A DNA stretch of 64,000 bases from a virus. The translations under genes and the position numbers were made by a program. The stretch is taken from UHGV virus genome UHGV-1362809, one strand, 5' to 3'. The notes below the pieces were generated by a model. That model ran no database searches. It was not told the origin of the DNA and was given only the letters and a program-made list of their open reading frames with translations. Position 1 is the stretch's first letter. Every line of letters begins with the position of its first letter. Below, piece by piece: positions 10,187 through 64,000 of the stretch.

Positions 10187-10592
10187 TCCCGTAGGATGTG
10201 TTTGTATGTGGATACATAGCCACATGTTCGGAACTGATTGGTTTGAAGTGAAAGTTGCCTACACCATGGAAAGCCTTAACCAACTGTTTGAAAAACTCAA
10301 GACCGAAAAAGTAGAATTTGCATACGGTCGTAAAACTCTGAAGTGTTTTAAATTTGGTGAAGACTTTAAAAAACCAGAATATGGAGCAGTATTTTGCAGT
10401 AAGAATCAGCACTGTACAGACATATCGCAGTTAGAATTTACTTATGATTCTACCCCTGCCCATAAATTGACTAAACGTTATGTAAAGGATCATAGCCATG
10501 GTTTTTATCCCGACCACTTGACTACCTTTAGAAAGGATAGATACTGGTATTTCCCTTGCGTTTCTATAATATCAACTTTTGAGGAGCAATAA
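10176..10592 (+). CDS. hypothetical protein (138 aa)
   Basis: RBS aaggaggagggtaaaa-ATG. Confidence 0.5.
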   Translation: MKVNPVGCVCMWIHSHMFGTDWFEVKVAYTMESLNQLFEKLKTEKVEFAYGRKTLKCFKFGEDFKKPEYGAVFCSKNQHCTDISQLEFTYDSTPAHKLTKRYVKDHSHGFYPDHLTTFRKDRYWYFPCVSIISTFEEQ

Positions 10593-11285: not shown

Positions 11286-11296
11286 AAGGAGTGACT

Positions 11297-12376: not shown

Positions 12377-12404
12377 ATATACAGTGTAGTAAAGGAGTAA
12401 TAAT

Positions 12405-16812: not shown

Positions 16813-16889
16813 CCCCTTGTAGCTTAGGCGGTTAAAGCAGTGGTCTTATAAACCAAAGAGCAGAGGTTCAAGTCCTCTCAAGGGGACCA
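16813..16889 (+). tRNA. tRNA with UAU anticodon (Ile-like), CCA encoded
   Basis: Manual cloverleaf: acceptor ccccttg/caagggg, D-arm gctt-aggcggtta-aagc, anticodon loop cttataa, T-arm agagg-ttcaagt-cctct, discriminator A plus cca. Confidence 0.6.
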
Positions 16890-16900
16890 ACAAACTTTAT

Positions 16901-16945
16901 GGAAACGTTGGTGTACAAAGTATAGGTTCGATTCCTATGGTTTCC
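16901..16945 (+). ncRNA. tRNA-like minihelix (acceptor-like stem plus T-arm, no D or anticodon arms), followed by T9 run
   Basis: ggaaac...tatagg-ttcgatt-cctat...gtttcc, then gttattgttttttttt; may act as a terminator or processing signal. Confidence 0.4.
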
Positions 16946-17358
16946 GTTATTGTTTTTTTTTAGTCTTGTTAGATACAATGCGAGTTTGGGCTCCTTTCAG
17001 TTGACGGAATGAGTGCTAGTATAATGTGGTTGCGATGCTGGTAAGACAGCGGTCCAGACTCTGTTTTCATTGTATAACGTTGTTTAATTATACCGTCCTC
17101 ATTCCGTCAGACCTGTAATGTAAGTACCTCCACGTGGTACAGGTTGGGTGCCTATTTTTAGGTAGCTAAAACTTACACACTCTTCTTTAAGTTGGTTAGA
17201 ACACCTGCTGGTTTACTTTGTGTTTGTCAGCAGGTTGACTGGTTGAAAGAACTGCCTCCTCGTGGCACCAGTCGGGTAGTGTGTTTTACACACGAGCTAA
17301 AAGTTCAAGCTTCAGACTGACGAGTCTGAATGATGATTGGATGATGAGTATATTATAG

Positions 17359-17441
17359 TGTTGCACGCCAAAGTGGAGAGTTGGCTGTTTCTAGATAAAC
17401 AGGGAAGCAATTCCTAATAGGTTCGATTCCTATTGCAACAT
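17359..17441 (+). ncRNA. type-II tRNA-like element, copy 1 (no encoded CCA, non-canonical anticodon loop)
   Basis: Acceptor tgttgca/tgcaaca, D-arm ccaa-agtggagag-ttgg, anticodon stem ctgttt/aaacag with 6-nt loop ctagat, variable hairpin ggaa-gcaa-ttcc, T-arm atagg-ttcgatt-cctat. Confidence 0.4.
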
Positions 17442-17447
17442 TATATC

Positions 17448-17528
17448 GAGTGCATTCCGTAGAGGTGAGACGGCTGTTTCTGAATAAACAGGGAAGCAAT
17501 TCCTAATAGGTTAAACCCTATCACACTC
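17448..17528 (+). ncRNA. type-II tRNA-like element, copy 2 (degenerate acceptor)
   Basis: Repeat of the previous element (ggctgtttctgaataaacagggaagcaattcctaatagg...), with only 5 of 7 acceptor pairs and a ttaaacc T-loop. Confidence 0.3.
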
Positions 17529-17805
17529 ACACCTTAGCTTCGAGGTCACCAAAGAGCAGTCGCACGACTTTAAACAGGGTATTTGCTTGATTCACCTAAG
17601 GAATGTAAATCAAGCGGTGGGTGTTTGACTACCATAAATCAACACAGCGTTTGTTGGCTATATATGCACGCACGTAGATAGTGATAAGATTACCGATGGG
17701 CAAGTGGTGATTGCTTTGTATGATTCGTAAATTCATACAGGGGTACTGACATACAGCCCCTTAACCGATGACATAGCAATATGATTGTCGTGTATGTCAA
17801 TTATT

Positions 17806-17839
17806 GGAGCGTTGGTAGAATGGTTATTACAACGGATTG
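17806..17839 (+). tRNA. tRNA-Ser 5' exon (acceptor, D-arm, 5' anticodon stem)
   Basis: ggagcgt (acceptor 5'), U8, 3-bp D-stem gta/tac with gaatggttat loop, acgga anticodon stem 5' strand. The complementary strands lie ~700 nt downstream. Confidence 0.6.
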
Positions 17840-18529
17840 AAAAGACTATGGGAAAATCTAAATTTATCTGTACTTATTGCGGTAAGGATTGTAAAAATTT
17901 AGGTGGACTTAATTGTCACGTCCCCTACTGTAAATTATAAAAATAGGGTGCCGAGACCCAGAAGCCCTTTAGCCCGCAGTAGAAAAGGTTGTATTCCTTG
18001 GAATAAGGGTTTAACAATGGCTACTTCTAAAATTGTTAAACGAGGGAGAGATAAACGGGTTAAACTTTATAGGGAAGGAATAATTGTTGGCTCTTTTACA
18101 GGTAGGCATCATACCGCCAAAACTAAAAGAAAAATGTCGAAAATTTGTAAACAAAGGCATTTAGATGGTTGGGATAATAAGGCAGGACGGTGTAAAAAGT
18201 ACAAGTATAAAAGTAAGTATGCTGGCTTAGTTACTTTAGACGGTACTTGGGAATTAGCTGTCGCACAATATTTAGACAAAAATGATATTCCTTGGAAGAG
18301 ACCTAATAAACGTTTTCCCTATAGATTTAGAGGAAAAAGTCGTACTTATAAACCCGACTTCTATTTAACTAAAAGGAGAACCTATATTGAAGTTAAAGGT
18401 TATCAAACATTAATGGATAGAGCTAAATGGAGAGATTTTCCTTATAGACTTCAAGTATGGAAAGCAGATAAACTTATTAAATTAGGCATTTTATAGTTGA
18501 ATGTTTAAATTGAAGTAGAGGATAGATTA
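17840..18529 (+). mobile_element. intervening sequence in tRNA-Ser: candidate group-I intron carrying an endonuclease ORF
   Basis: Separates complementary tRNA halves (7/7 acceptor pairs, 5/5 anticodon-stem pairs); contains the 197-aa nuclease ORF. Confidence 0.5.
17903..18496 (+). CDS. putative PD-(D/E)xK-type endonuclease within the tRNA intervening sequence (homing-endonuclease candidate)
   Basis: 197 aa with GTG start. C-terminal block RTYKPDFYL...RTYIEVKGY resembles a restriction-endonuclease-like fold (D...EVK). A 30-aa CxxC...CxxxxC ORF at 17848-17938 overlaps the 5' end in another frame, suggesting a frameshifted zinc-finger N-terminus. Confidence 0.5.
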   Translation: MDLIVTSPTVNYKNRVPRPRSPLARSRKGCIPWNKGLTMATSKIVKRGRDKRVKLYREGIIVGSFTGRHHTAKTKRKMSKICKQRHLDGWDNKAGRCKKYKYKSKYAGLVTLDGTWELAVAQYLDKNDIPWKRPNKRFPYRFRGKSRTYKPDFYLTKRRTYIEVKGYQTLMDRAKWRDFPYRLQVWKADKLIKLGIL

Positions 18530-18581
18530 CTAATCCGTCGTCCGAAAGGATGTGTGGGTTCGAGTCCTACACGCTCCGCCA
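18530..18581 (+). tRNA. tRNA-Ser 3' exon (3' anticodon stem, long variable arm, T-arm, acceptor 3', G73, CCA)
   Basis: tccgt; variable arm cgtccgaaaggatg; T-arm gtggg-ttcgagt-cctac; acgctcc pairs 7/7 with ggagcgt at 17806; discriminator G and CCA; matches tRNA-Ser architecture. Confidence 0.6.
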
Positions 18582-18914
18582 TATTACCTTTGGATTCATT
18601 TAAGGTCTGGTTATAGTTGGGTTGGTCCCCAACTTGGTACTAGATAAAGGCTGACATAAATCAGTATTGATATGTCCGTTGGTTGAAAGATTCCCGTTGT
18701 GATGACTGGAGTCGCCTTGATTGAGTCAATATATTGTGATTCTGTGTTTAAGGAATACAGCGTGGAAGCGTATGCCGCTATGCAACGACCTGTGGACAAC
18801 GAAAAGTGCCTTAAAGAGGATTAGTAAGTGCTGATGGTTTGGTAATTTGCACTTGGGAGTACTTTGTACGAGCAAACAACTGCCTATAAAAATTACCTGC
18901 AATTTTGACTATTT

Positions 18915-18991
18915 GGTGTCGTAGCTCAACGGGATAGAGCATAAGACTTCTAATCTTAAGGTTGGGCGTTCGAGTCGCCCCGACATCACCA
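18915..18991 (+). tRNA. tRNA-Arg (UCU), CCA encoded
   Basis: Acceptor ggtgtcg/cgacatc, D-arm gctc-aacgggata-gagc, anticodon stem taaga/tctta with loop cttctaa (UCU), T-arm gggcg-ttcgagt-cgccc, discriminator A plus cca. Confidence 0.8.
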
Positions 18992-19319
18992 AAAATTGGG
19001 TTGGCTACGTTAGCTCCCAAGTCATCAAAACGTGGCTATGTACTTGGTCAACGGGCATCAAGTAGGCTATGGTATGACGTGCCTTTACATACTCCTAATG
19101 CAATAATGGTGACTGTTGCGGGTCCGTCGTTAGGACCGTCTTCACAGGTAGCGCTGTAAACGACTATGGTAGAGAACTGCCCGTGATTTGACATCCAATA
19201 ATAGTACGTTAAGCTGTTAGTGCATTGTGTAATGCAGTGCAATAGTACAGGAGGGATGTTTTTTCTTTTCTTCCTCAGTTAGCTCTTTATAGTTTTCGGT
19301 TCCTGTGAAAAACTAATAT

Positions 19320-19402
19320 GCCCTTATGGTGAAATTGGTAGACACGCAAGATTAAGGTTCTTGTGCGAAAGCATCTCCGTTCGAGTCGGAGTAGGGGCAC
19401 CA
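19320..19402 (+). tRNA. type-II tRNA-Leu (anticodon loop ttaaggt read as AAG; possibly UAA), CCA encoded
   Basis: Acceptor gccctta/taggggc, 3-bp D-stem gtg/cac with 11-nt D-loop, anticodon stem caaga/tcttg, long variable arm gtgcgaaagcat, T-arm ctccg-ttcgagt-cggag, A73, cca. Confidence 0.6.
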
Positions 19403-47281: not shown

Positions 47282-47282
47282 A

Positions 47283-54272: not shown

Positions 54273-54284
54273 TGGGAGGTCGGT

Positions 54285-54863
54285 ATGATTAAGAAACGTT
54301 TGCTGCGTGCAATTTTAAACTCCGGCGTATCCGCTTGGAAGGAATTTAGTTATGACCAGAAAAAGGTAGCAATTTTAGAAGTTACTCCTTTTGACTACAA
54401 TACTAAATACGCCTTGGTTCAACTTCCTTCTATTGAAGTTGGTAAGGACGCTGTATCTTTTAACTTAGACATCAAAGGAAACTTTATAGATTTCGGAATG
54501 TTGTTTATACGCAATTCTGAATTAGTCAAGTTAAGCATCAATGATGGTGTCGCACACCTTGAACAGGTGGACATTAAAAAGAGTCCTGTTTTGGTTATAG
54601 GTAGAGGTAACACTGAACAGGAAATTGACAGTGTGGAACAGTTGTCAATTTCCGAAGGTACTGTTTTGACACCTATTGCTGGTGTTAAGTTTAAAACTTC
54701 TATTCCCACTATAACTCTCGGTATTAAAATTGCGGAGTCAAGTGATGAAGAAGTGGTGGACCCTGTTCAACCACAGCCAGAACCAGAAGAACCTGCAAAG
54801 GAAGAACAACAAACTGAAGAAGTTGTAAACCCTGTTGACTTAGAGTTCCCAACAGAGGAATAA
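54285..54863 (+). CDS. paralogue sharing the N-terminal module of 53046, with acidic Pro/Glu-rich C-terminus (192 aa)
   Basis: MIKKRLLRAILNSGVSAWKEFSYDQKKVAILEVTPFDYN versus MKKRLLKAVVRSGVSSWKLFDYDDKKSQIKAVTPFNYL. Confidence 0.55.
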   Translation: MIKKRLLRAILNSGVSAWKEFSYDQKKVAILEVTPFDYNTKYALVQLPSIEVGKDAVSFNLDIKGNFIDFGMLFIRNSELVKLSINDGVAHLEQVDIKKSPVLVIGRGNTEQEIDSVEQLSISEGTVLTPIAGVKFKTSIPTITLGIKIAESSDEEVVDPVQPQPEPEEPAKEEQQTEEVVNPVDLEFPTEE

Positions 54864-54874
54864 CTCCTTACTAC

Positions 54875-54907
54875 GGGGTGCGTGAAATTCACGCACCCCT
54901 ATTTTTG
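54875..54907 (+). terminator. rho-independent terminator
   Basis: ggggtgcgtgaaattcacgcacccc followed by tatttttg. Confidence 0.7.
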
Positions 54908-54973
54908 TCTTGATTTTTACCCTGTTTTTTAGTATACTGTAAATAGTAATAAGTTGACAAAAGGAGTATGACT

Positions 54974-55183
54974 ATGACTTATGAGGAAGCAGTATGTTTG
55001 ATGAAGCAAGGTAAAATGGTGCGCCGGAATAATGGCGTATATTTTATACGAGATGGTAAATCAATGTGTTTGGTAATAGATTCCTATCCAAAAGATAAGG
55101 ATACCAGAATTGATACCTTTTTGATTGATTCAGATATTGATGATTTTGACAGAAATGCTACTGACTGGGAGGTAGTAGGATGA
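54974..55183 (+). CDS. hypothetical protein (69 aa)
   Basis: ATG 54974 after aaaaggagtatgact. Confidence 0.45.
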   Translation: MTYEEAVCLMKQGKMVRRNNGVYFIRDGKSMCLVIDSYPKDKDTRIDTFLIDSDIDDFDRNATDWEVVG

Positions 55184-56121
55184 TTTGGTTGTGTGTTTGT
55201 TTATGGGTTTGTACCTATTTGTTTTTCGCCAATGTGGCTGATGACTGCTATACTTTTGACGGAGACGCATTAGAACAACGTATTTTTAAACTGTGTTGCC
55301 TGTTGTTAGCCCCTTTGCTTGTCGTATGGTATATTGCTATAAGCCTATTTGACTTTAAGTTGTCCTACAAGACAAAACGTTGGTTGGTAGGGTTGGAGCT
55401 TGGTAATTTAGATTGGCAGTTCTGGTTTCCTGTTGGTAAAAGACAACGTCATACTTTTTATGGTACGAGCAGACGTCAATTCTACCATTATAAGTATGTT
55501 TTATCCGAAACTTTGGTGCGCTGGTATCGTAATATAAAACTGCTTAACCCATTTAGCTTGTACGCTAATTTTGTTGGACAACAGCTGTTATCTCACATGG
55601 ACGCAAAGCTGTATGAAAACAATTTAAGCAGAGTGTATGAAGTAGATAAGACAGTATTTTATTCGTACACGGTTACTTTTGGTTATCTTACCATTTATTC
55701 CTATGAAGAAGACGAACAGTTCGATACTAAGAAAAATATTACTACTTTGTATCAAGGCTTCATTTATACTTCTAACCAAGCATCTAAGGTATTTAGACTG
55801 TTTATGTCTAATCCTTCGTATAAGTACTGGCACGAGGGAATGTTCTGTAGAGGTTTGTACTGTTATCTATTATTTCTTATAAATGGAGACAATGCAGACC
55901 TGTATAAAAAACAGGTTAAAAAAGTAGGTAAATATACTATGCTTGGGTATATTATAAGCCAGTGGTGTATACATTGTTCTAATACATCATTTATGAAGGC
56001 TCTGTACAATGTAATGTTTTATGTAGTATGCGGGTCTAAGAAAGATGTGCAGCAATACTTAGAAATAGCTTTGGGGCAATGCAAAACTTATGTTCCTGCA
56101 TTTAGAATAAACTTTTATTGA
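55180..56121 (+). CDS. membrane protein (313 aa)
   Basis: N-terminal hydrophobic segments; ATGA overlap. Confidence 0.5.
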   Translation: MIWLCVCLWVCTYLFFANVADDCYTFDGDALEQRIFKLCCLLLAPLLVVWYIAISLFDFKLSYKTKRWLVGLELGNLDWQFWFPVGKRQRHTFYGTSRRQFYHYKYVLSETLVRWYRNIKLLNPFSLYANFVGQQLLSHMDAKLYENNLSRVYEVDKTVFYSYTVTFGYLTIYSYEEDEQFDTKKNITTLYQGFIYTSNQASKVFRLFMSNPSYKYWHEGMFCRGLYCYLLFLINGDNADLYKKQVKKVGKYTMLGYIISQWCIHCSNTSFMKALYNVMFYVVCGSKKDVQQYLEIALGQCKTYVPAFRINFY

Positions 56122-56132
56122 GGAGAATAATT

Positions 56133-56513
56133 ATGGGGTTCAAGAGAAAATTTTATGAAGAACGTGCCCTGTTGATTAAAGCTGTTTATCAAACGCTTCA
56201 TTTAGGTCTTCTTAATTGTATTCCTACAATTTCTAATTTGGAACATCATACATGGGATAAACAGGAGTGCATAAAGGCTAATATATTTTTTACTAAGGCT
56301 ATTAATATGTTTGCCGAGAAAAGCTATGACCTACAACATGCAAAGTTAAAAGAATGTTGGAATCTTTTGTTGGAAGTTAATGATAGCCTCAATATCATTA
56401 GGAAAAATGCTAATTCTAAACAGGAGGACTGTAGTATTGGGTACTTCCAACACGATTTTATTAATTTGACAAACATACTGGCTAGCACAATATATCTGCT
56501 GGACGAAAAATGA
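56133..56513 (+). CDS. hypothetical protein (126 aa)
   Basis: ATG 56133 after ttgaggagaataatt. Confidence 0.45.
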   Translation: MGFKRKFYEERALLIKAVYQTLHLGLLNCIPTISNLEHHTWDKQECIKANIFFTKAINMFAEKSYDLQHAKLKECWNLLLEVNDSLNIIRKNANSKQEDCSIGYFQHDFINLTNILASTIYLLDEK

Positions 56514-56890
56514 CGAAGCTGTTTGCGTGTGTGATAAAAGCAGGGTTAGAAGAATGTAAAAAATCTACTTTTAGTCCTAAGATTGGTGCCGTAGTGTTCA
56601 AAGGTAAAAAGATCTATAGCACTGGTCATAACGGAATAAGAAGTAGTAGTATTTCTATGAAACACCGTCATTGGGAAGAATCCTTACACGCTGAACAAGC
56701 TGCCCTGCTTAATTTAGACTGGTGTAAACTTAAAGGTGCAAGCATACTGGTGTTAAGGTTGTCTAAATCTGGTAAGCTTGGTATGTGTAAGCCATGTCCT
56801 ATGTGTGAAAAACTTATACGTTATGTTGGTATGAAGGACGTATGGTACTCTACCGTCTCTGGGGAAATTATTTGTGAAAGACTAGACTAA
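56510..56890 (+). CDS. CMP/dCMP deaminase-family zinc-dependent deaminase (126 aa)
   Basis: HAEQAALLN ... PCPMC catalytic zinc-binding motifs of the cytidine/deoxycytidylate deaminase fold. Confidence 0.7.
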   Translation: MTKLFACVIKAGLEECKKSTFSPKIGAVVFKGKKIYSTGHNGIRSSSISMKHRHWEESLHAEQAALLNLDWCKLKGASILVLRLSKSGKLGMCKPCPMCEKLIRYVGMKDVWYSTVSGEIICERLD

Positions 56891-57495
56891 TGACTGTGTA
56901 TATAACTTCCGACTTGCACTTTAACCATTCCAAGGTTATGGAACAACGTGGTTATACCGACCTTGCTAAAATGAATTGGGACTTGATTGATTTTTGGAAC
57001 TCAAAAATCACTGAGAATGATGATGTGTATTATCTTGGTGATTTTTGTTTTGGGGATATAGACCATACTCTAAAGAGTTATAAAATCGAACTTCCTAATG
57101 GCTATGTTTCCTGTAATGATTTGTTACGTCATTTGAGATGTAGAACTCTACATTTTGTAATTGGAAATCATGACACTTCCTCAAAGCTTAAGATATATAA
57201 TAACTACGGATATACGGATAAGACTATTCGTTTTTATTCCTGTTTGACTTATAAAGTATCTGAGTTTGAAAAAGTGTTGTTTACTCACTATCCCATTCAT
57301 CCTTATTTATTTAATGAAGAGTCACGGGAAGGAGTAAAGAAGTTGGGTAATGTACACGGTCATATACATTTTGGAACTGTAAATGATAGTAGGTATATTA
57401 ATGTGAATTATGACGTATGTCATAAGATTTATACCTTGGACGAAGTGTTAGACTATTTTAATGGAGATAAAGATGCAGGAATACAGAAAAATTAA
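56890..57495 (+). CDS. calcineurin-like metallophosphoesterase (201 aa)
   Basis: SDLHFNH, YYLGDFCFGD, VIGNHD, GHIH motifs. Confidence 0.65.
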   Translation: MTVYITSDLHFNHSKVMEQRGYTDLAKMNWDLIDFWNSKITENDDVYYLGDFCFGDIDHTLKSYKIELPNGYVSCNDLLRHLRCRTLHFVIGNHDTSSKLKIYNNYGYTDKTIRFYSCLTYKVSEFEKVLFTHYPIHPYLFNEESREGVKKLGNVHGHIHFGTVNDSRYINVNYDVCHKIYTLDEVLDYFNGDKDAGIQKN

Positions 57496-57742
57496 ACCTT
57501 TGCTGGACAATAATAGAGGCAAGCTTTTGTTAAGTGGGTGGGTAGTTATAAATCTAAATGGAAATTTACCCACTGTTGTACATGAGAATATGGATAGTGC
57601 GAATGATGCTGTGAAAAAAGCAGTAGCTAATGGAGATAAGGGAACTTATTTAGTGTGTGAAATTCGTGCGATTCACGCTTTGGAAATGCACACCTATACA
57701 AATCAAGGACGCATTGATGCTGATTACGGTTTTTGTGGCTGA
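57473..57742 (+). CDS. hypothetical protein (89 aa)
   Basis: ATG 57473 after ggagataaag. Confidence 0.45.
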   Translation: MQEYRKIKPLLDNNRGKLLLSGWVVINLNGNLPTVVHENMDSANDAVKKAVANGDKGTYLVCEIRAIHALEMHTYTNQGRIDADYGFCG

Positions 57743-58064
57743 ATCACTTAAAGCTTGGAAAAGTTTATTTCCTAAGGCTAATGTGGAAGAATATCCTGGA
57801 GTTTCTATCTTAGAGCAAAGACAGTTAGGAGCAAGGTGTAGTTATTTAGCTAAGTCCGAATGGGGTACTATGTCTCCCTTTTTGCTAAATTCCTTTATAC
57901 AATGCGCAAAAGAAGATGGTTTATTTTCTTATGTACGCATTAGGTATATTTATGACAATGGGGACGTTAAGGACTTCACTGATAACTTGCCTGGATTATA
58001 TCGTATGATGTTTAAACCTATGGAAGCTTTGTACGATCCTGCTTTTGAAATAACGGTCAAATAA
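57657..58064 (+). CDS. hypothetical protein (start uncertain)
   Basis: ORF overlapping the previous gene by 85 nt; the true start is probably downstream. Confidence 0.35.
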   Translation: MKFVRFTLWKCTPIQIKDALMLITVFVAESLKAWKSLFPKANVEEYPGVSILEQRQLGARCSYLAKSEWGTMSPFLLNSFIQCAKEDGLFSYVRIRYIYDNGDVKDFTDNLPGLYRMMFKPMEALYDPAFEITVK

Positions 58065-58097
58065 TTTTGAGTAGTATAAACTCAAGGTTATTTAGTC

Positions 58098-58559
58098 ATG
58101 ATATACGAATATAAAGAGGGAAATATTCTAAGTTGCTCCTCCAACATTTTGTTGTGCAACGTAGACGATGTTGGTACTCTTAAGGGATTATGTTGGCAGT
58201 TTTGTCAGCGGTTTGACGGGTTCCAGGATTTTTATATAAATGCTTGTAAAACGAATGTATTTAGTTCTACTTGCATATTGAGTAAGGATTTTGAAGATCC
58301 GTATACCAAATCTATAAAAAAGGTTGTTTGTGTACGGTGCAAGGACTGGGAGGGTAATTCAGATTATTTAGGTCTTAAACTTGGGTTGTTTGAATTGAAG
58401 GAACAGCTATTATGTCTAGACAGTAAGGTTATTGTAGCTGTTCCTCCTCTTGCCTATACTTCTAAACATAATAGTTTATCAAAGGCTACCATAGAGGGTT
58501 TGCTTAAGGAGGTATTTTGGAATACCTCCTGTTTGTTTTGGTTGTATAATTTTAGGTGA
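58098..58559 (+). CDS. hypothetical protein (153 aa); weak macro-domain-like pattern
   Basis: NILLCNVDDVG...KVIVAVPPLAYTSKHNS loosely resembles macro-domain N..AAN...GGG and AFPAISTG blocks; speculative. Confidence 0.4.
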   Translation: MIYEYKEGNILSCSSNILLCNVDDVGTLKGLCWQFCQRFDGFQDFYINACKTNVFSSTCILSKDFEDPYTKSIKKVVCVRCKDWEGNSDYLGLKLGLFELKEQLLCLDSKVIVAVPPLAYTSKHNSLSKATIEGLLKEVFWNTSCLFWLYNFR

Positions 58560-58563
58560 AAAT

Positions 58564-58887
58564 ATGGCTTTAAATGATTATAAATGTCCTTTAGGGTGCG
58601 TTGATTCCGGCGTGGAGCAAATTGATGTCTTGACAGGTTGGGTTATTGGACAAAAACAATGGGCTATGGATAAAGCTACGGAGTTGATGCAAAAAATTAA
58701 AGAGGAAATGGAAGAGCGTAGCAAAAAACGCAACGCCAATAAGCCTCCCGCACCTCCTAAAAAGCCTGACCCTTGTTTAGAAAAATGTAAGGCTCGATTT
58801 CAACAAATAGAGAAAGACGTTAAGGCAGGTAAAATAAAAGAAGAAGATAAAAAACAAGCCTATGTGGATGTAATTATAGAAGAATAG
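58564..58887 (+). CDS. hypothetical protein (107 aa)
   Basis: ORF. Confidence 0.5.
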   Translation: MALNDYKCPLGCVDSGVEQIDVLTGWVIGQKQWAMDKATELMQKIKEEMEERSKKRNANKPPAPPKKPDPCLEKCKARFQQIEKDVKAGKIKEEDKKQAYVDVIIEE

Positions 58888-58977
58888 GTAAATCCTAAGC
58901 TTAATGAAAAATTAGAAGATATTAGGTCTTCGATTATTGTAGAAGGTCAAGCTGCCGTTGGTTGGGCTAAGGACATA

Positions 58978-59367
58978 ATGGATAAGTTAGCTCCTTTGAT
59001 GGAAATGCCTTCTATTGATACTATTCTTACTTGGGTTTCCAGTATTATTAGTCTGCTGAAAGAGTTAAAGGGTAAGTTGCAAGAAATAATTGAGTGTATA
59101 CCAGATCATATTTCTGCTACTACTGGTGCTATTGATGATCTTAAACAAGAATGTGGTATGGGAGAAAAAGATCCAAAAGAGGATAAGCCTATTGATTTTT
59201 CTAAATTAAAAGTAGAATTTGAGCCCATCACTATGGCTGATTTTATGAATGGTAGAAAATTTCCTAAATTGAAATACAAAAAGCCAACGAAGTATTCTAA
59301 AAAATCTATGCCACCTGATAAGTGTTATTCTAAAGCAAGAAATAAAGCCAATAAAGATAGCAAATGA
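58978..59367 (+). CDS. hypothetical protein (129 aa)
   Basis: ORF. Confidence 0.45.
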   Translation: MDKLAPLMEMPSIDTILTWVSSIISLLKELKGKLQEIIECIPDHISATTGAIDDLKQECGMGEKDPKEDKPIDFSKLKVEFEPITMADFMNGRKFPKLKYKKPTKYSKKSMPPDKCYSKARNKANKDSK

Positions 59368-60176
59368 AAATATATAATAAAGATGCATTAGATTTATTAA
59401 AGTCTATAAAGTCGGATTCTATTCATTTTATACACACAGATATACCTTATTATATTACCGAAAACGGTATTACTAAGTCTAGCGAAAGTGGGTATAACTG
59501 GGCTTCTAAAGATAAAAAATGGGATGAGCAGTGGTCTTCACTAAAAAGTTATCGTAGATGGTTGCGTACCGTAGTTAGACAACTTATTAGAGTGCTAAAG
59601 CCGCAACGGCATTGTGTAATATGGTGCAACATTAGAGATATTAGCTATATAACGGATGTGGCTATAAAATATGGTTGCACCATTAATCCTATGTGGGTGT
59701 GGCAGAAAACTAATCCTGTTCCTCAAGCCGCAGGGGTTACACCTAAAAAAGACGTAGAAGTAGCTGTCTGGTTTGTTAAAGGGGACCGAAAACAAAAATA
59801 CTATAATAAGCACTATGGGGCTATTTCTCAAGTTATACGATGTTCTATTCCTCGTAATGAAGGTAGTGATATACGACATCCAAGTCAGAAGCCTTTGTTT
59901 TTGGTAACAATAATAAACTTGTTTTTGTCTAAAAAGGGGTCTATTGTATTGGATCCTTTTGGTGGTACTGGGTCTATAGCAATAAGTGCCAATTTTTTGC
60001 AACGAAATGTTATTGTAAATGACATTGATAAGAAATATTATCAGTGTATAAAAAATAGAGAAAAAGACTTTGATTGTACCAAAGTGTTTGATTACCTAAC
60101 ATCCTTAGGTGGAAATGATGGTAAGCTAAGGAAAATACTAAAATGTTGTCAAAAAAGACCAAAAAGGGTATTTTAA
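59364..60176 (+). CDS. DNA methyltransferase (N6-adenine/N4-cytosine type)
   Basis: Catalytic DIPY (DPPY-like) near the N-terminus and AdoMet motif VLDPFGGTGS near the C-terminus (beta-class order). Confidence 0.75.
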   Translation: MKIYNKDALDLLKSIKSDSIHFIHTDIPYYITENGITKSSESGYNWASKDKKWDEQWSSLKSYRRWLRTVVRQLIRVLKPQRHCVIWCNIRDISYITDVAIKYGCTINPMWVWQKTNPVPQAAGVTPKKDVEVAVWFVKGDRKQKYYNKHYGAISQVIRCSIPRNEGSDIRHPSQKPLFLVTIINLFLSKKGSIVLDPFGGTGSIAISANFLQRNVIVNDIDKKYYQCIKNREKDFDCTKVFDYLTSLGGNDGKLRKILKCCQKRPKRVF

Positions 60177-60178
60177 AT

Positions 60179-60415
60179 ATGATTGAATACTGGAATAAAC
60201 ATTTATCCAGTGGTGGTAATCTTAGTTTGCAGGATTATTCTCATCATTACTGTAAAGCCAACCGACCCTACTACAAGGAATGTATAAAAACCCATTTCGA
60301 TTGCTCCTTGATTGTTACCAAGCAAATGGTTAAGCTTTTTGTACAAGATAGGGATACACTCTTTCAAAAAGGGTTTACTGATATAGAGGTAAAAGATGGA
60401 CATACTATACAATAA
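60179..60415 (+). CDS. hypothetical protein (78 aa)
   Basis: ATG 60179 in frame with track ORF 60143. Confidence 0.4.
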   Translation: MIEYWNKHLSSGGNLSLQDYSHHYCKANRPYYKECIKTHFDCSLIVTKQMVKLFVQDRDTLFQKGFTDIEVKDGHTIQ

Positions 60416-60974
60416 ACAACATTTTTTAAACTTATTGCAATGCGTACAGCGGCAGGGAATTAGTCAGTTAAATCAATATCTTTGCGACTCGGACTTTTTT
60501 ACTGCTCCAGCTTCTGTTAAATACCATGATAGCTACGAAGGTGGTCTGTGTCAACATTCTTTAAACGTGTACAGATACTTAGTCAAACTTGACGATTTTT
60601 ATAAAACACACCTTTCTAAGGAGAGTATGATTATTGTTGGTTTGCTACACGATTTGTGTAAGGTAGACTTTTATGTTCCCACTAAAAGAAATCAAAGGAT
60701 TGATGGTAAATGGCAAGAAGTAGATACCTATACCTACAATGACGATTTTCCTTGTGGTCACGGGGAAAAGTCAGTATTTAGAATTATGCAGTTTATTAAG
60801 CTCAATAAACAAGAAATACTTGCTATTAACTGGCACATGGGTGCATACGACGTTAGAGCAGACCAGTTTAATCAGTTGGATAGTGCATATAGAATAAGCC
60901 CCCTTACCTTTTTATTACATCAGGCTGATATGTCTGCTACTTATATGGGAGTTGAAAATGAAGCAGGAAATTGA
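60396..60974 (+). CDS. HD-domain phosphohydrolase-like protein (192 aa)
   Basis: H...HD arrangement (QHSLNVYRYL ... VGLLHDLCK ... D). Confidence 0.55.
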   Translation: MDILYNKQHFLNLLQCVQRQGISQLNQYLCDSDFFTAPASVKYHDSYEGGLCQHSLNVYRYLVKLDDFYKTHLSKESMIIVGLLHDLCKVDFYVPTKRNQRIDGKWQEVDTYTYNDDFPCGHGEKSVFRIMQFIKLNKQEILAINWHMGAYDVRADQFNQLDSAYRISPLTFLLHQADMSATYMGVENEAGN

Positions 60975-61179
60975 TACTTATGCTAAAATTGCTCTTCATA
61001 ACGATTTTGAACTAACTGAAAAAGCTAACAAAGTTATCAATGCTAAGAAAGTGTTAGGCGTTGGTATAAAGTGTCCTTGTGAGCCTGATAATCACGACCG
61101 ATACTGCGGTTCTAAATTTTGTATGAATGAAGTATCACAGACTGGTATTTGTCATTGTGGCTTATTTCGTAGAAAATAG
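60952..61179 (+). CDS. small Cys-rich protein (75 aa)
   Basis: CPCEPDNHDRYCGSKFC...CHCG. Confidence 0.45.
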   Translation: MKMKQEIDTYAKIALHNDFELTEKANKVINAKKVLGVGIKCPCEPDNHDRYCGSKFCMNEVSQTGICHCGLFRRK

Positions 61180-61206
61180 TGTAGGGTAAATTACTTAGGA
61201 GGTATT

Positions 61207-61530
61207 ATGCCTATTTGTTATGTGTGTGAATCCAGTTTAGCACTACCTAATGGTGTATCAACAGAAGAATGTAATCGGTCTATAGAAGAAACAATCCAGC
61301 AGGCGGAAAAAGCCGTTGACAGTGAAAAGTCCGTTTATACTATGTCCCCGTTTTTTCTACAGCCCTTAATTTTATTTGCCGATGAAAAAGGTGTTTTGGA
61401 TAGCTGGAAACTTGTATTGTTACATGATGATGGTTCCGAGGAAGATAAAACTGATAAGCGGGAACATCTGTTTGAAATGATGTCGTCACCTCTAGACCGT
61501 CTATTTACTACAGCCTGGAAGGACGGATAA
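61207..61530 (+). CDS. hypothetical protein (107 aa)
   Basis: RBS cttaggaggtatt-ATG. Confidence 0.45.
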   Translation: MPICYVCESSLALPNGVSTEECNRSIEETIQQAEKAVDSEKSVYTMSPFFLQPLILFADEKGVLDSWKLVLLHDDGSEEDKTDKREHLFEMMSSPLDRLFTTAWKDG

Positions 61531-61748
61531 TGAAGGTTTGGGAACAAGGTACAAGGTTAAAACACTTTAAAGGGAATTTGTATACCGTTGTTACTATGGC
61601 TTTAGAAGTTTCTTCTGATAAAGAAATTCCTTATTGTGTTTATACTGACGGAAACAATACTTATTGTAGACCTGTTAGTAATATGCAGGATATAGTAGTA
61701 AATTTTCAAGGTAAAAGCGTTCAACGATTTGTAGAGGCGTCTAAATGA
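61530..61748 (+). CDS. hypothetical protein (72 aa)
   Basis: TAATG junction. Confidence 0.45.
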   Translation: MKVWEQGTRLKHFKGNLYTVVTMALEVSSDKEIPYCVYTDGNNTYCRPVSNMQDIVVNFQGKSVQRFVEASK

Positions 61749-62371
61749 TTGTTATCATGACAGGACACGCAGGAGCAGGTAAGGATACCATAGCTGATTA
61801 TTTAGTGTCTAACTATAATTTTACAAAGTTGAGTCTAGCAACTAAACTTAAAGAAGGAGTTGCACATATATTTGGTTGGGATTATGAAATGTTATTAGGC
61901 AGTACTCCCCAATCACGTTTATGGCGAGAACAACCAGACCAGTACTGGTCATCTGTATGTGGTAGACAAATTACTCCTCGTATTGCCCTACAACAGGTAG
62001 GAACCGAATGTTTTAGAAAAGTGTTTGGTGAGGATTTTTGGGTAGGTTGTTTAGCCAAAGAGATTGTTCAAAATAAGTCTAACAATTATGTTATATCTGA
62101 TGCTAGATTTATGAGTGAAATAACCTATCTTAAAAATTTAGGCGGTCAAGTATGGGAAGTACAACGCTCTTTACCTTGGTATTACACTACTATTTGGGCG
62201 GCTAAAAGAGATGGTACTTATGATACTGATCCTGAGGTGCTAAAAATTAAGGAGCAGGTGCATAGTTCGGAACTCGAATGGATTTATGATAATAAGCCTA
62301 TGCACACTATTAGAAATACAAATGATTTTGATACTTTGTACAAGTCGATAAACGAGTTAATGAAATTTTAA
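61745..62371 (+). CDS. deoxynucleoside monophosphate kinase (T4 gp1-like)
   Basis: MIVIMTGHAGAGKDTIADYLVSNY... parallels the T4 gene 1 N-terminus MKLIFLSGVKRSGKDTTADFIMSNY; the C-terminal region VISDARFMSEI matches the VPDTRQDHEM block. Confidence 0.7.
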   Translation: MIVIMTGHAGAGKDTIADYLVSNYNFTKLSLATKLKEGVAHIFGWDYEMLLGSTPQSRLWREQPDQYWSSVCGRQITPRIALQQVGTECFRKVFGEDFWVGCLAKEIVQNKSNNYVISDARFMSEITYLKNLGGQVWEVQRSLPWYYTTIWAAKRDGTYDTDPEVLKIKEQVHSSELEWIYDNKPMHTIRNTNDFDTLYKSINELMKF

Positions 62372-62418
62372 CTTTTTTGTTTTAGTATGAAATCATCAAC
62401 AAATGAAAGGGTTGAAAA

Positions 62419-62613
62419 ATGACAACATACGAACAAGAAGTTAAACAAATGCGTAATCGCCAAGTATTGACGAAGGTCTTTTCAGTTTTATCATTTTTAA
62501 TGATAATGGTCTTTGTCATTGTTGTAATGGTGTATTGCTGGGATAGTGGTATGTCGAAGAACGAACACTACAAAAATTCCAATGCGTGCATATTCAAGTC
62601 AAACTGTAAATGA
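62419..62613 (+). CDS. small membrane protein (64 aa)
   Basis: Central TM helix. Confidence 0.4.
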   Translation: MTTYEQEVKQMRNRQVLTKVFSVLSFLMIMVFVIVVMVYCWDSGMSKNEHYKNSNACIFKSNCK

Positions 62614-62623
62614 GAGGTGCGAT

Positions 62624-62887
62624 ATGGATATGCGTATAGTGATAAGATTGTGTGAGTCTGCATACTCCAATCGTTTTGGGGGTTCTTCTATCAGAATAGT
62701 TGAATGTTCTGATTCAAAGATAGGTTACGGTTTGGATTTATCAGACATACCTACCGACCAACATTCCTTAGTATCTACTCGTTTTAATAAAATTTTAGAG
62801 GAAGTATGCACTATAATAGCCTACTCCTCGAAGGACGATCTGCGATACTATATGAGCGGTAAACAAGTATCTCTTAGTATTAATTAA
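62624..62887 (+). CDS. hypothetical protein (87 aa)
   Basis: Internal ATG 62624 after gagagg, downstream of the previous stop; the track ORF 62546 overlaps the previous gene. Confidence 0.45.
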   Translation: MDMRIVIRLCESAYSNRFGGSSIRIVECSDSKIGYGLDLSDIPTDQHSLVSTRFNKILEEVCTIIAYSSKDDLRYYMSGKQVSLSIN

Positions 62888-62898
62888 AGGAGGCAGCT

Positions 62899-63192
62899 AT
62901 GGAATTTTGGGCTCCAGGAAAACCGTTTAATCTAAACCTTACGATATTGTTTATTGCGTATCTAGGTATTTGGTTTTATGTGCTGAAAGTATGGTGGCAT
63001 GCGCTGAATAATACTGCCTATTTTAAATACAAGATTTTTCATTTTGTAAAAAGATGGGGTAGTATTATTTTGGAACGTAGAATATCAATTAAAATTCAAA
63101 TAGCTCCTAAGGGTACTCCTTTGTTTAACTATACGAATAAGGATGAAAACATCATAGACGCTATTTATGAAGACATTGAAAATTGTAAATAA
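62899..63192 (+). CDS. small membrane protein (97 aa)
   Basis: RBS taaaggaggcagct-ATG; TM helix. Confidence 0.45.
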   Translation: MEFWAPGKPFNLNLTILFIAYLGIWFYVLKVWWHALNNTAYFKYKIFHFVKRWGSIILERRISIKIQIAPKGTPLFNYTNKDENIIDAIYEDIENCK

Positions 63193-63210
63193 CACTATAA
63201 GGAGATTGTT

Positions 63211-63408
63211 ATGAAAATTGAAAATATTTCTTTTAGCGTCGAACGTGTGATAAATACGGGCAACTATGAGTCAGTTCGGATTAGAGCTGAAATGGGTGGA
63301 TCAACAGAGGACGTAAAGTCTGATATGAAATTGCTTAAAAAGGCAGTATATAAATGTATCGACGCTGAGTCTGATGTAGTATTAGAAAAATATGGAAATG
63401 ACAAATGA
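63211..63408 (+). CDS. hypothetical protein (65 aa)
   Basis: RBS taaggagattgtt-ATG. Confidence 0.45.
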   Translation: MKIENISFSVERVINTGNYESVRIRAEMGGSTEDVKSDMKLLKKAVYKCIDAESDVVLEKYGNDK

Positions 63409-63866
63409 AACTTATCAAGAAAATCAAACGACTGTTCAATAAGATTATTACCCCTATGATTTTGGGTATTCCTGTGTACTCTACTAAGTTTTTTAGACAT
63501 GTTTGTCATAAGAACTTTTTGCAGGGTATTACATACGCTTTGTCCAAAAAACAAAAGGCTCTCAATAAAATAAAAAATAAAACTATCTGGGATAACGTTG
63601 TTAATTTTTCCATCGTTTATTCTACTTTGTGTAGTACCAAGGTAAAGAATAAATGGGTACAAGAAGCAAAAGACTTTTGTTGTTATTATGCCTTTACTTG
63701 TTGTCACGGGCAGACTAAGGAATTTAAAGCCGCTGTCATTAAACGTATTGTGGAGGCACCGCATTTTAAATCTTTGTCTGAAGACCAAGTGAAAACTTTT
63801 ATTTCCTCAGTGACTTGCAATCATAAAGACTTGATGGAACTTTTGTTTTTGAAATGTAGGATATAA
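63405..63866 (+). CDS. hypothetical protein (153 aa)
   Basis: ATGA overlap. Confidence 0.5.
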   Translation: MKLIKKIKRLFNKIITPMILGIPVYSTKFFRHVCHKNFLQGITYALSKKQKALNKIKNKTIWDNVVNFSIVYSTLCSTKVKNKWVQEAKDFCCYYAFTCCHGQTKEFKAAVIKRIVEAPHFKSLSEDQVKTFISSVTCNHKDLMELLFLKCRI

Positions 63867-64000
63867 ATGAAGGAAGAACTTATAAAATTAAAGGGCGAAG
63901 TTGTAGAAAAATGTCCTAATGCTTTGTTTCGTGTAAAGCTAGAAAATGAAATGAATGTACTGTGTACTCTTAATGGTAAGATGCGCAAGAATAGTATTTA
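63867..64000 (+). CDS. infA: translation initiation factor IF-1 homologue (5' partial, runs off the window)
   Basis: [44 protein letters not shown] aligns with the bacterial IF-1 S1-fold (..[35 protein letters not shown]). Confidence 0.6.

What the first reader, a model, noticed from the sequence alone, without database searches (positions are those of the whole stretch)
63867..64000. Phage-encoded translation initiation factor IF-1 homologue
The last ORF in the window aligns residue-by-residue with the bacterial IF-1 OB-fold core (FRVxLENxxxVxxxxxGKMRKNxI). Phage-borne IF-1 is uncommon and would imply direct manipulation of host 30S initiation. It sits near other host-takeover-style genes (methyltransferase, kinases).
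Basis: partly seen in the sequence, partly recalled or inferred. Interest (0 to 1): 0.55.

Follow-up and report, generated by a model that had tools for sequence, protein, structure and literature searches.

The report
Jumbo-phage copy of initiation factor IF-1
The last ORF of the window is the first 44 codons of a real, intact and strongly conserved bacterial-type translation initiation factor IF-1 gene carried by a ~235 kb gut-type jumbo phage; this is a kind of gene already reported in huge phages, so it is a new member of a known kind, not a new phenomenon.

Summary
Observation confirmed. ATG 63867 opens an ORF cut by the window end. Its 44 codons match IF-1 (Pfam PF01176 36.9 bits, above the cut-off; PDB IF-1 chains about 1e-9).

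A public 237,192-bp contig (L127) is 100.000% identical to window 53867-64000 and completes the gene. The product is 72 aa and has all the conserved C-terminal residues. It passes the NCBIfam infA equivalog cut-off (93.7 vs 61.15 bits). A model of a 93%-identical orthologue superposes on 30S-bound E. coli IF1 (TM 0.93, rmsd 0.8 A).

The element is a phage. On that contig a major head protein lies 6 kb downstream of the gene and a tail sheath 10 kb downstream. The capsid is 35-39% identical to phiRSL1/PaBG-type jumbo myoviruses.

The gene is under strong purifying selection (dN/dS 0.023). It is syntenic in three phage lineages (93% and 70% aa identity).

Phage IF-1 is rare but already published: Lak megaphages 2019, huge phages 2020, Jug phages 2026. 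The neighbours are DNA and nucleotide-metabolism genes, not host-takeover genes.

The one unusual point is that the whole clade replaces the A1493-contacting Arg46 with Tyr and loses both conserved histidines.

Most likely function: it supplements or replaces host IF-1 on 30S subunits during infection. This is inferred, not shown.

The parts
63867..64000 (+). 5' part (44 codons + 2 nt) of the phage infA-like gene. The complete gene is 219 nt (72 aa plus stop) on the 100%-identical contig L127, at 10001-10219.
   Evidence: fragment matches IF-1. (completion on L127). (full-length P0192: TIGR00008 93.7 bits vs cut-off 61.15; PF01176 73.3 bits vs 30.2).
63858..63861 (+). AGGA Shine-Dalgarno core, 5 nt upstream of the ATG.
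   Evidence: Sequence read. An SD-like core lies upstream of 53 of 79 plus-strand ORFs in the window, against 9.1 +/- 2.9 at random positions.
63405..63866 (+). Upstream 153-aa ORF of unknown function. Its TAA stop abuts the IF-1 start codon (TAAATG). It is conserved in the same position in all related contigs.
   Evidence: No PHROG, Pfam or NCBIfam match. No promoter or terminator excess around the gene, so IF-1 is probably co-transcribed in this gene array (inference).
59364..62371 (+). Surrounding module: DNA N6/N4 methyltransferase (59364-60176), HD phosphohydrolase (60396-60974), DUF1653 protein (61530-61748) and dNMP kinase (61745-62371). This is DNA and nucleotide metabolism, not host takeover.
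   Evidence: PHROG hits (phrog_67, phrog_28876, phrog_139). Pfam marks.
16813..19402 (+). tRNA cluster: Ile-TAT at 16813-16889, one of undetermined type at 17358-17442, Arg-TCT at 18915-18991, Leu-AAG at 19320-19402. These are the only other translation-related genes seen in the window.
   Evidence: ARAGORN. Rfam confirms two of the four at gathering score.

Best explanation
The ORF is the 5' end of a functional, phage-encoded orthologue of bacterial translation initiation factor IF-1 (infA). It is carried by an uncultured jumbo myovirus of about 235 kb and 37-39% G+C.

Proposed mechanism. The 72-aa OB-fold protein is made from a tightly packed gene array in the phage's DNA and nucleotide-metabolism region. 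It binds the A site of the host 30S subunit (helix 44, 530 loop, uS12) as cellular IF-1 does, and works with host IF2 and IF3. This keeps initiation capacity high, or raises it, during a long infection in which host gene expression is probably curtailed. The phage tRNAs (Ile-TAT, Arg-TCT, Leu-AAG) would act alongside it.

Shown:
- Family identity and completeness of the gene.
- Predicted fold, modelled on a 93%-identical orthologue.
- Retention of 11 of 13 reported 30S-contact residues.
- Phage location.
- Strong purifying selection, and conservation across three phage lineages.

Inferred:
- 30S binding.
- Cooperation with host IF2 and IF3.
- That the benefit is supplementation rather than altered selectivity.
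For: 1. Family. The fragment matches IF-1. The full gene on the 100%-identical contig passes TIGR00008 infA (93.7 vs 61.15 bits) and PF01176 (73.3 vs 30.2 bits).
2. Fold. The AlphaFold model of orthologue P0003 (93% identical) has pLDDT 90.3. The best Foldseek hits are all IF-1: 4ql5 at E 5.5e-9, and E. coli IF1 on the 30S (9fco_I) at TM 0.93, rmsd 0.8 A.
3. Contact residues. Those listed in PMC10913371 and bioRxiv 10.1101/2023.10.27.564398 are kept: K2, P17, R22, G37, K38, R40, Y59, D60, K63, R65, R69.
4. Phage origin. On L127 there is a major head protein (phrog_2522, E 3.8e-68), a virion protein (phrog_16710), a primase, ThyX and a tail sheath (PF17482) within 10 kb downstream. Contigs of 234-237 kb come from independent samples, with the gene at different offsets. 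The capsid is 35-39% identical to phiRSL1, PaBG and BcepSauron jumbo phages.
5. Selection. dN/dS is 0.023 between the window lineage and the L001 lineage (27 synonymous, 5 non-synonymous differences). Three neighbouring genes give 0.05-0.13. All 5 polymorphic sites among 8 contigs are synonymous.
6. Retention. The same IF-1 to ThyX neighbourhood is found in lineages with 93% and 70% identical IF-1.
7. Precedent. IF-1 genes occur in Lak, DAC/SJC, Phosso and LR7565xx phages and in the literature.
Against: - No expression, binding or complementation data exist for this or, as far as my literature searches found, any phage IF-1.
- The clade replaces Arg46 (E. coli numbering), which is reported to contact the flipped-out A1493, with Tyr. 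This holds in all 13 clade members, against R/K in 259 of 273 comparison sequences and Tyr in none. The clade also replaces both conserved histidines (H30 to M/I/L, H35 to T/Q). The protein may therefore not behave as a plain substitute for host IF-1.
- One near-identical short contig (L003, 99.3% nt) has a 4-nt deletion that frameshifts the gene.
- The host is unknown, so the comparison with the host's own infA could not be made.
- The structure model was made for the 93%-identical orthologue, not for the window's own protein.
Confidence: 0.6

Rival explanations
1. Specialised or neofunctionalised IF-1. The phage protein still docks in the 30S A site, but its changed contact residues alter the outcome. 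It could bias start-site or mRNA selection towards phage messages. It could out-compete host IF-1 as a partial inhibitor of host translation. It could occupy the A site to shield initiating ribosomes from host ribosome-targeting defences.
For: The substitutions are clade-wide and fixed at otherwise highly conserved positions. E. coli R46 becomes Tyr in 13 of 13 members; the 273 comparison sequences have R/K in 259 and Tyr in 0. H30 becomes M/I/L (H in 235 of 273). H35 becomes T/Q (H in 225 of 273). L17 becomes Cys. S/A37 becomes Asn. R46 is reported to contact A1493. Very strong purifying selection (dN/dS 0.023) shows that the derived sequence itself is maintained. The clade sits on a long branch with no supported cellular sister. 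Two other phage IF-1s, Phosso and IMG/VR L004, also lack R/K at this position and have Asn instead.
Against: Eleven of thirteen reported contact residues are unchanged, and so is the predicted fold. Tyr can stack on an extruded adenine, so the change may be functionally conservative (inference). Nothing in the sequence points to a new partner or an added domain: the protein is 72 aa with no extension.
Confidence: 0.2
2. RNA-chaperone or other non-ribosomal role. The small S1/cold-shock-like OB fold is used by the phage as a general single-stranded-RNA binder or antiterminator, not as an initiation factor.
For: IF-1 shares the S1/CspA-type OB fold, and E. coli IF1 has been reported to have RNA-chaperone activity (my recollection of the literature; not checked here). 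The gene lies in a DNA and nucleotide-metabolism module, not beside other translation genes.
Against: The residues kept are the ribosome-specific ones: P17 and R22 (h44 loop), G37-K38-x-R40 (530 loop and A1492), Y59-D60 (uS12). The protein passes an equivalog-level infA model. There were no hits to cold-shock or S1 families.
Confidence: 0.07
3. Decaying or non-functional passenger gene, or an assembly chimera that joined a bacterial infA to phage DNA.
For: Contig L003 (1,157 bp, 99.3% identical to the window) has lost one unit of a tandem GTTGGTTG. This frameshifts the ORF after codon 47 and gives a 54-aa product. The window itself stops before this site.
Against: The 100%-identical contig L127 and seven further long contigs (96.7-98.6% nt) all carry the intact gene and encode the identical 72-aa protein. 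The exact protein is indexed in 49 blocks of contigs. dN/dS is 0.023. Synteny is conserved in three diverged lineages from different samples and assemblers, which rules out a chimera. No cellular IF-1 is more than 66% identical.
Confidence: 0.03
4. The window is bacterial (chromosome, prophage remnant or plasmid), so this is simply a cellular infA.
For: No virion gene lies inside the 64-kb window itself. The window encodes GroEL, NAD-dependent ligase and gyrase-like topoisomerase, all of which also occur in cells.
Against: The major head protein, a virion structural protein and the tail sheath follow within 10 kb on the identical contig. All genes are on one strand and most have no known family. 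The topoisomerase genes carry inteins with HNH domains. The context differs from cellular infA, which sits in infA-SDR-SppA or secY-adk-infA-rpsM arrangements. Contig sizes cluster at 234-237 kb with permuted ends.
Confidence: 0.02

Closest known systems
Bacterial translation initiation factor IF-1 (infA; TIGR00008, Pfam PF01176; e.g. E. coli IF1, PDB 1AH9 and 9FCO chain I)
   Same: It is a 72-aa single OB-fold protein that aligns to E. coli IF1 without gaps over its whole length and is about 53% identical to it. It scores above the equivalog cut-off. The predicted structure of the 93%-identical orthologue fits at TM 0.93, rmsd 0.8 A. It keeps K2, P17, R22, G37, K38, R40, Y59, D60, K63, R65 and R69.
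   Different: It is encoded by a phage inside a DNA-metabolism module, not in a ribosomal-protein operon or as a cellular stand-alone gene. Arg46 becomes Tyr, His30 becomes Met/Ile/Leu, His35 becomes Thr/Gln, and two clade-specific cysteines (C16, C33) appear. The best identity to any cellular IF-1 found is 66%.
IF-1 genes of huge phages: Lak megaphages of Prevotella (PMC6784885), huge-phage clades of Al-Shayeb et al. (PMC7162821; LR756511, LR756508), Jug phages (core gene 'translation initiation factor 1A', PMC12880540)
   Same: These are also jumbo or huge phages from gut or environmental metagenomes that carry a bacterial-type IF-1 alongside tRNAs. The literature interprets the gene in the same way, as augmenting or redirecting host translation.
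   Different: The proteins are only 47-53% identical (Lak-C1 47%, LR756511 53%) and do not group with this clade in the tree. The genome here is about 235 kb with 34-42% G+C in the window, against 540-550 kb for Lak and 360-402 kb at 27-30% G+C for Jug. The capsid is of phiRSL1/PaBG type.
IF-1 homologues in cultured phages: Sinorhizobium phage Phosso (annotated IF-1) and Bacteroides phages DAC16-23 and SJC03 (annotated hypothetical)
   Same: These show that isolated, propagated phages do carry the gene. Like this clade, Phosso lacks Arg/Lys at the Arg46 position; it has Asn there.
   Different: The proteins are 50-56% identical. The DAC19 ORF has an N-terminal extension of about 35 aa and lies next to the phage GroEL across the record ends, whereas here GroEL is about 50 kb away.
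phiRSL1 / PaBG / BcepSauron-type jumbo myoviruses of Proteobacteria
   Same: These are the closest cultured relatives by major head protein (35-39% identity over 90-96% of its length) and have a similar genome size of 200-260 kb.
   Different: None of them appeared among the phage records with an IF-1 match. IF-1 is therefore a trait of this uncultured lineage, not of the wider group.

Membership tests
Bacterial IF-1 (infA; TIGR00008 equivalog / PF01176) | Whole-protein score above the curated family cut-offs | tested here: met
   Full-length P0192, whose gene is completed on the 100%-identical contig, scores TIGR00008 93.7 bits vs 61.15 and PF01176 73.3 bits vs 30.2. The 44-aa window fragment alone scores PF01176 36.9 bits, above 30.2, and TIGR00008 47.5 bits, below 61.15 because only 43 of 69 model positions are present.
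Bacterial IF-1 (infA; TIGR00008 equivalog / PF01176) | Single-domain protein of about 70-75 aa with an intact C-terminal half (GD, YD, KGR, C-terminal Arg) | tested here: met
   The protein is 72 aa with G49-D50, Y59-D60, K63-G64-R65 and R69 present. It is identical in 8 long contigs. The one exception is the frameshifted short contig L003.
Bacterial IF-1 (infA; TIGR00008 equivalog / PF01176) | Five-stranded S1-like OB fold with the short helix between strands 3 and 4 | tested here: met
   The AlphaFold model of orthologue P0003 (93% identical) has pLDDT 90.3, with strands 5-16, 20-25, 30-35, 51-57 and 60-69 and a helix at 37-41. The top 14 Foldseek PDB hits are all bacterial IF-1. This is a prediction, not an experimental structure.
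Bacterial IF-1 (infA; TIGR00008 equivalog / PF01176) | Conservation of the residues that contact h44, the 530 loop and uS12 on the 30S subunit | tested here: inconclusive
   Eleven of thirteen listed contacts are kept. Arg46 (the A1493 contact) is Tyr and His35 is Thr/Gln in the whole clade. The contact list comes from PMC10913371 and bioRxiv 10.1101/2023.10.27.564398.
Bacterial IF-1 (infA; TIGR00008 equivalog / PF01176) | Binds the 30S A site and stimulates IF2/IF3-dependent initiation; essential function complementable in vivo | not testable with these tools
   This needs biochemistry or genetics. See the decisive next steps.
Phage-encoded translation factors of huge/jumbo phages | The gene lies on a bona fide phage genome, with virion genes on the same molecule | tested here: met
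   On L127, which is 100.000% identical to window 53867-64000, there is a major head protein (phrog_2522, E 3.8e-68), a virion structural protein (phrog_16710, E 1.8e-39) and a tail sheath (PF17482). The head protein matched 95 phage records, among them phiRSL1/PaBG-type jumbo myoviruses.
Phage-encoded translation factors of huge/jumbo phages | Genome of at least 200 kb | tested here: met
   The exact protein lies on contigs of 234,035, 235,353 and 237,192 bp, and the cluster table lists a longest contig of 237,238 bp. The contigs come from independent samples and carry the gene at different offsets and orientations. Circularity and completeness were not directly checked.
Phage-encoded translation factors of huge/jumbo phages | The gene is maintained by selection in the phage lineage and is not a transient capture | tested here: met
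   dN/dS is 0.023. All within-species polymorphisms are synonymous. Synteny holds across lineages with 93% and 70% aa identity. No cellular sequence is more than 66% identical.

The most novel reading that the evidence does not exclude
This phage clade has evolved a specialised IF-1. The A1493-contacting arginine is replaced by tyrosine, both conserved histidines are lost and two cysteines are gained, and all of this is held under very strong purifying selection. The changes could alter what the factor does in the 30S A site. Possible outcomes are favouring phage mRNAs or particular start contexts, displacing host IF-1, or protecting initiating ribosomes from host A-site-targeting defences. 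It would then be more than a spare copy of the host factor.
Probability: 0.12. Interest if true: 0.7.

Novelty: new member of a known kind. Interest (0 to 1): 0.3.

Why it matters
Phage-borne core translation factors are one of the arguments that large phages partly re-equip the host ribosome, yet my literature searches turned up no functional test of a phage IF-1.

This clade would make a clean test case for three reasons:
- The gene is tiny.
- It is fixed and strongly constrained across several related jumbo-phage lineages recovered from many metagenomes.
- It differs from cellular IF-1 at a defined decoding-centre contact (Arg46 to Tyr).

A simple swap experiment could therefore tell 'extra supply' from 'altered function'. 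As a genomic observation alone it adds one more lineage to a published list.

Tried and rejected
- Megablast of window 58000-64000 against 50,697 phage records found no match.
- Exact-pattern scans for the gene found nothing in IMG/VR or in JGI metagenome contigs. The completing contig came instead from a cluster-member look-up followed by an exact-protein look-up.
- The first homologue search found only four relatives. Its one 100%-identical hit, P0001 on short contig L003, is frameshifted. I considered a pseudogene or a programmed frameshift. I rejected both after eight long contigs showed the intact gene and the deletion mapped to one unit of a GTTGGTTG tandem repeat.
- The Jug-phage hypothesis (IF-1 is a Jug core gene) was rejected on G+C and genome size: 27-30% and 360-402 kb for Jug, against 34-42% in the window and about 235 kb here.
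- The HMMER search of 1.84 billion representatives gave 6,350 hits, but the library carries no taxonomy and the representatives are clustered at 50% identity. It therefore only bounded the identity to cellular sequences at 66% or less. The cluster look-up of the top hits gave no organism names.
Its ranking (Alphaproteobacteria 64-66%, Bacteroidales 54-56%) is suggestive only.
- The NJ tree with 100 bootstraps resolved the phage clade (100%) but nothing deeper (15% or less). No donor lineage can be named. An earlier Biopython bootstrap run timed out.
- The promoter/terminator scan around the gene gave nothing above shuffled expectation.
- The Rfam scan of the window found only two tRNAs and no introns or riboswitches.
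- Two jumbo-phage reviews and two gut jumbo-phage catalogues do not mention IF-1.

Full report
**1. The observation**

The window ends inside an ORF. The ATG is at 63867-63869 and directly follows the TAA stop of the upstream 153-aa ORF (TAAATG). It is preceded by an AGGA core at 63858-63861. The 44 readable codons are [44 protein letters not shown].

The fragment alone matches:
- Pfam PF01176 (IF-1/eIF-1A) at 36.9 bits, above the 30.2 gathering score.
- NCBIfam TIGR00008 infA at 47.5 bits over model positions 1-43 of 69, E 1.3e-12. This is below the 61.15 cut-off only because the ORF is truncated.
- Twelve solved bacterial IF-1 chains at E 1.5e-9 to 6e-6.

**2. Completing the gene**

The window region has no near match among deposited phages, and exact patterns from the gene are absent from IMG/VR and JGI contigs. 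A protein search found a small clade:
- P0001: 54 aa, 100% identical over the fragment.
- P0002 and P0003: 72 aa, 91-93% identical.
- P0004: 74 aa, 70% identical.

The cluster listing revealed P0192, a 72-aa protein whose first 44 residues equal the window fragment. It is recorded in 49 blocks of contigs, seven of them with contigs of 0.2-1 Mb.

Contig ena:ERZ27229744:k119_39996 (237,192 bp; locus L127) is 100.000% identical to window 53867-64000 over 10,134 nt. Seven other long contigs are 96.7-98.6% identical. All eight encode the identical protein [72 protein letters not shown].

This protein passes the infA equivalog cut-off (93.7 vs 61.15 bits) and PF01176 (73.3 vs 30.2 bits).

P0001 is the only exception. 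Its 1,157-bp Logan contig (L003, 99.3% identical to the window) has lost one unit of a tandem GTTGGTTG. The C-terminal half is still readable in the other frame. This is a single outlier, either a rare slippage allele or an assembly error.

**3. Is it a phage?**

Inside the window all sizeable ORFs are on the + strand and most have no known family. The recognisable genes are:
- NAD-dependent DNA ligase.
- GroEL.
- An AAA ATPase.
- A DUF2201/VWA protein.
- QueE-like radical SAM protein.
- SbcD-like nuclease.
- Both topoisomerase II subunits, each interrupted by an intein with an HNH domain.
- A DNA methyltransferase, an HD hydrolase and a dNMP kinase.
- Four tRNAs.

No virion gene lies in the window itself.

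On the identical contig, however, the IF-1 gene is followed by a 54-aa ORF (overlapping by ATGA), ThyX, an M78-like protein, a DnaG-type primase, a virion structural protein (phrog_16710, E 1.8e-39), the major head protein (phrog_2522, E 3.8e-68) and an 865-aa tail sheath (PF17482).

Contigs of 234-237 kb from independent samples carry the gene at different offsets and orientations, as expected for a permuted or circular genome of about 235 kb.

The head protein is 35-39% identical to those of phiRSL1, PaBG, BcepSauron and Erwinia/Xanthomonas jumbo myoviruses. The organisms and hosts tabulated for the 95 matching records are Proteobacteria. 'Phage-encoded' is therefore supported.

**4. Is the gene functional in the phage?**

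- Between the window lineage (L127) and the L001 lineage (77-81% nt identity, colinear) the IF-1 gene shows 27 synonymous and 5 non-synonymous differences. That gives dN/dS 0.023, lower than three neighbouring genes (0.05-0.13).
- The five polymorphic sites among eight conspecific contigs are all synonymous.
- A third lineage (L129; IF-1 70% identical) keeps the IF-1, ThyX, M78-like order.
- The gene has an SD core like most genes of the phage: 53 of 79 ORFs, against 9.1 +/- 2.9 at random positions.
- There is no separate promoter or terminator signal, so it is probably co-transcribed with the DNA and nucleotide-metabolism array (inference).

**5. Structure and contact residues**

An AlphaFold model of the 93%-identical orthologue P0003 has pLDDT 90.3 and shows the five-stranded OB barrel with the short helix. 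Its best PDB matches are all bacterial IF-1, including E. coli IF1 bound to the 30S (9fco_I; TM 0.93, rmsd 0.8 A).

Two papers list the IF-1 residues that contact h44, the 530 loop and uS12 (PMC10913371; bioRxiv 10.1101/2023.10.27.564398). The phage protein compares as follows:

| Position (E. coli numbering) | Phage clade (13 members) | 273 comparison sequences |
|---|---|---|
| 11 contact residues (phage K2, P17, R22, G37, K38, R40, Y59, D60, K63, R65, R69) | kept | conserved |
| Arg46 (contacts A1493) | Tyr in all 13 | R/K in 259, Tyr in 0 |
| His30 | Met/Ile/Leu | His in 235 |
| His35 | Thr/Gln | His in 225 |
| Leu17 | Cys | Leu in 255 |
| Ala34 | Cys | Ala in 187, Gly in 64, Cys in 20 |

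The comparison set is biased towards the best hits. Even so, the pattern is clear and is the only unusual feature of this protein.

**6. Origin and host**

No cellular IF-1 found is more than 66% identical (HMMER over 1.84 billion representatives; genome collection).

The closest by identity are Alphaproteobacteria, including low-G+C MAGs from sheep colon and rumen (64-66%). Bacteroidales reach 54-58%.

The nearest cellular genes sit in typical chromosomal contexts: infA-SDR-SppA, or secY-adk-infA-rpsM.

In an NJ tree the phage clade is solid (100% bootstrap) but its deeper placement is unresolved (15% or less). It does not group with Lak, DAC, Phosso or LR756511 IF-1s. The gene is therefore an old, diverged acquisition with no nameable donor.

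Weak, convergent hints point to a proteobacterial host, possibly a low-G+C gut alphaproteobacterium. This is a lead, not a result. The hints are:
- The capsid relatives infect Proteobacteria.
- The phage uses SD sequences heavily, and Bacteroidia ribosomes are reported to ignore SD (abstracts of PMC7797042 and PMC9976891).
- The G+C content is similar to those MAG contigs.
- Such bacteria co-occur in the same ENA study series.

**7. Comparison with what is known**

A tblastn search with the full-length protein finds IF-1 homologues in 35 of 50,697 phage records:
- Fifteen Lak Prevotella megaphages.
- Six Bacteroides phages (DAC/SJC; annotated hypothetical).
- Sinorhizobium phage Phosso (annotated IF-1).
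- Two huge-phage genomes (LR756511, LR756508).
- Several records that look like cellular contamination.

A PHROG family of 'unknown function' (phrog_30201) matches at 81.7 bits.

The literature already reports 'prokaryotic initiation factor-1' in Lak phages (PMC6784885). It also reports 'initiation factors IF1 and IF3' among genes implicated in redirecting host translation in huge phages (PMC7162821). 'Translation initiation factor 1A' is listed as a conserved single-copy gene of Jug phages (PMC12880540). The window is not a Jug phage, on G+C and genome size.

My searches found no experimental study of a phage IF-1.

**8. Mechanism and verdict**

Best-supported reading (confidence about 0.6 for the mechanism, above 0.9 for the identity): this is a functional phage IF-1 that occupies the 30S A site and, together with the phage tRNAs, sustains or boosts initiation in the infected cell.

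The main rival (about 0.2) is a specialised IF-1 whose changed decoding-centre contacts alter selectivity or compete with the host factor. Pseudogene, chimera, cellular-origin and non-ribosomal OB-fold readings are largely excluded by the data above.

They are DNA-modification and nucleotide-metabolism enzymes.

Overall this is a correct call on a real and complete gene. It belongs to a class already described for huge phages. It is a new member of a known kind, of modest interest, with one testable twist (Arg46 to Tyr).

Noticed in passing
window 44120-47281 and 47271-49763: Both topoisomerase II subunit genes (gyrB-like and gyrA-like) are interrupted by Intein_splicing domains that carry HNH endonuclease matches. 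Two inteins sit in adjacent essential genes.
   Followed up: no
L003 660-690 (corresponds to just beyond window 64000): A 99.3%-identical short contig has lost one unit of a tandem GTTGGTTG in the IF-1 gene. This frameshifts it to a 54-aa product, while eight long contigs are intact. It is either a rare slippage allele or an assembly error.
   Followed up: partly
window 58564-58887 and 58978-59367: These two ORFs (107 and 129 aa) form a single 267-aa gene in the related contigs L121-L126 and L128. They are split in the window and in its identical contig L127. This is a strain-specific disruption of a gene of unknown function.
   Followed up: no
window 17358-17442 and 19320-19402: ARAGORN calls a tRNA of undetermined type with a 2-base 'anticodon', and a tRNA-Leu(AAG). 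Rfam's tRNA model at gathering score confirms only the Ile-TAT and Arg-TCT genes. The other two may be atypical or false.
   Followed up: no
window 11291-13250: An ORF with an S-adenosylmethionine-lyase-family match (11291-12376) lies next to a QueE-like radical-SAM gene (12405-13250). This suggests an anti-restriction or 7-deazaguanine modification module.
   Followed up: no
window, whole: There is strong Shine-Dalgarno usage: an SD-like core upstream of 53 of 79 plus-strand ORFs against 9.1 +/- 2.9 at random positions, with a G-rich peak at -11 to -7. TAG is a rare stop codon (5 of 79). This argues against an SD-blind Bacteroidia host and fits the standard genetic code.
   Followed up: partly
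L116 (Bacteroides phage DAC19, MT074139.1) 627-932, and record 177248-178849: The DAC/SJC Bacteroides phages carry an unannotated IF-1 homologue (DAC19_4, 'hypothetical protein') with an N-terminal extension of about 35 aa. It lies next to the phage GroEL across the ends of the linear record.
   Followed up: partly
L115 (MT836093.1) 5950-6174, and other hits: The best 'phage' hit, an UNVERIFIED human-faecal scaffold with 51.6% G+C, encodes an IF-1 almost identical to that of sheep-gut alphaproteobacterial MAGs. It may be cellular. The 'Acinetobacter phage MD-2021a' contigs (infA plus groL) and the unannotated Listeria, Staphylococcus and Enterococcus records also look like possible bacterial contamination of the phage collection.
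   Followed up: partly
L121 17222-18331, against L127, L124 and L123 at the same place: A homing-endonuclease gene of about 369 aa (DUF7487; phrog_3339) lies between the head gene and the tail region in some strains (L121, L122, L126) and is absent or replaced in others. This is a presence/absence polymorphism of a mobile element.
   Followed up: no
P0039 and P0191 (database proteins): The top-scoring representative in the HMMER search is a 343-aa plant protein (Oxalis oulophora) with two IF-1-like stretches. A 610-aa Aphanomyces protein is listed in the same 90% cluster as the 54-aa P0001, which looks like a clustering artefact.
   Followed up: no
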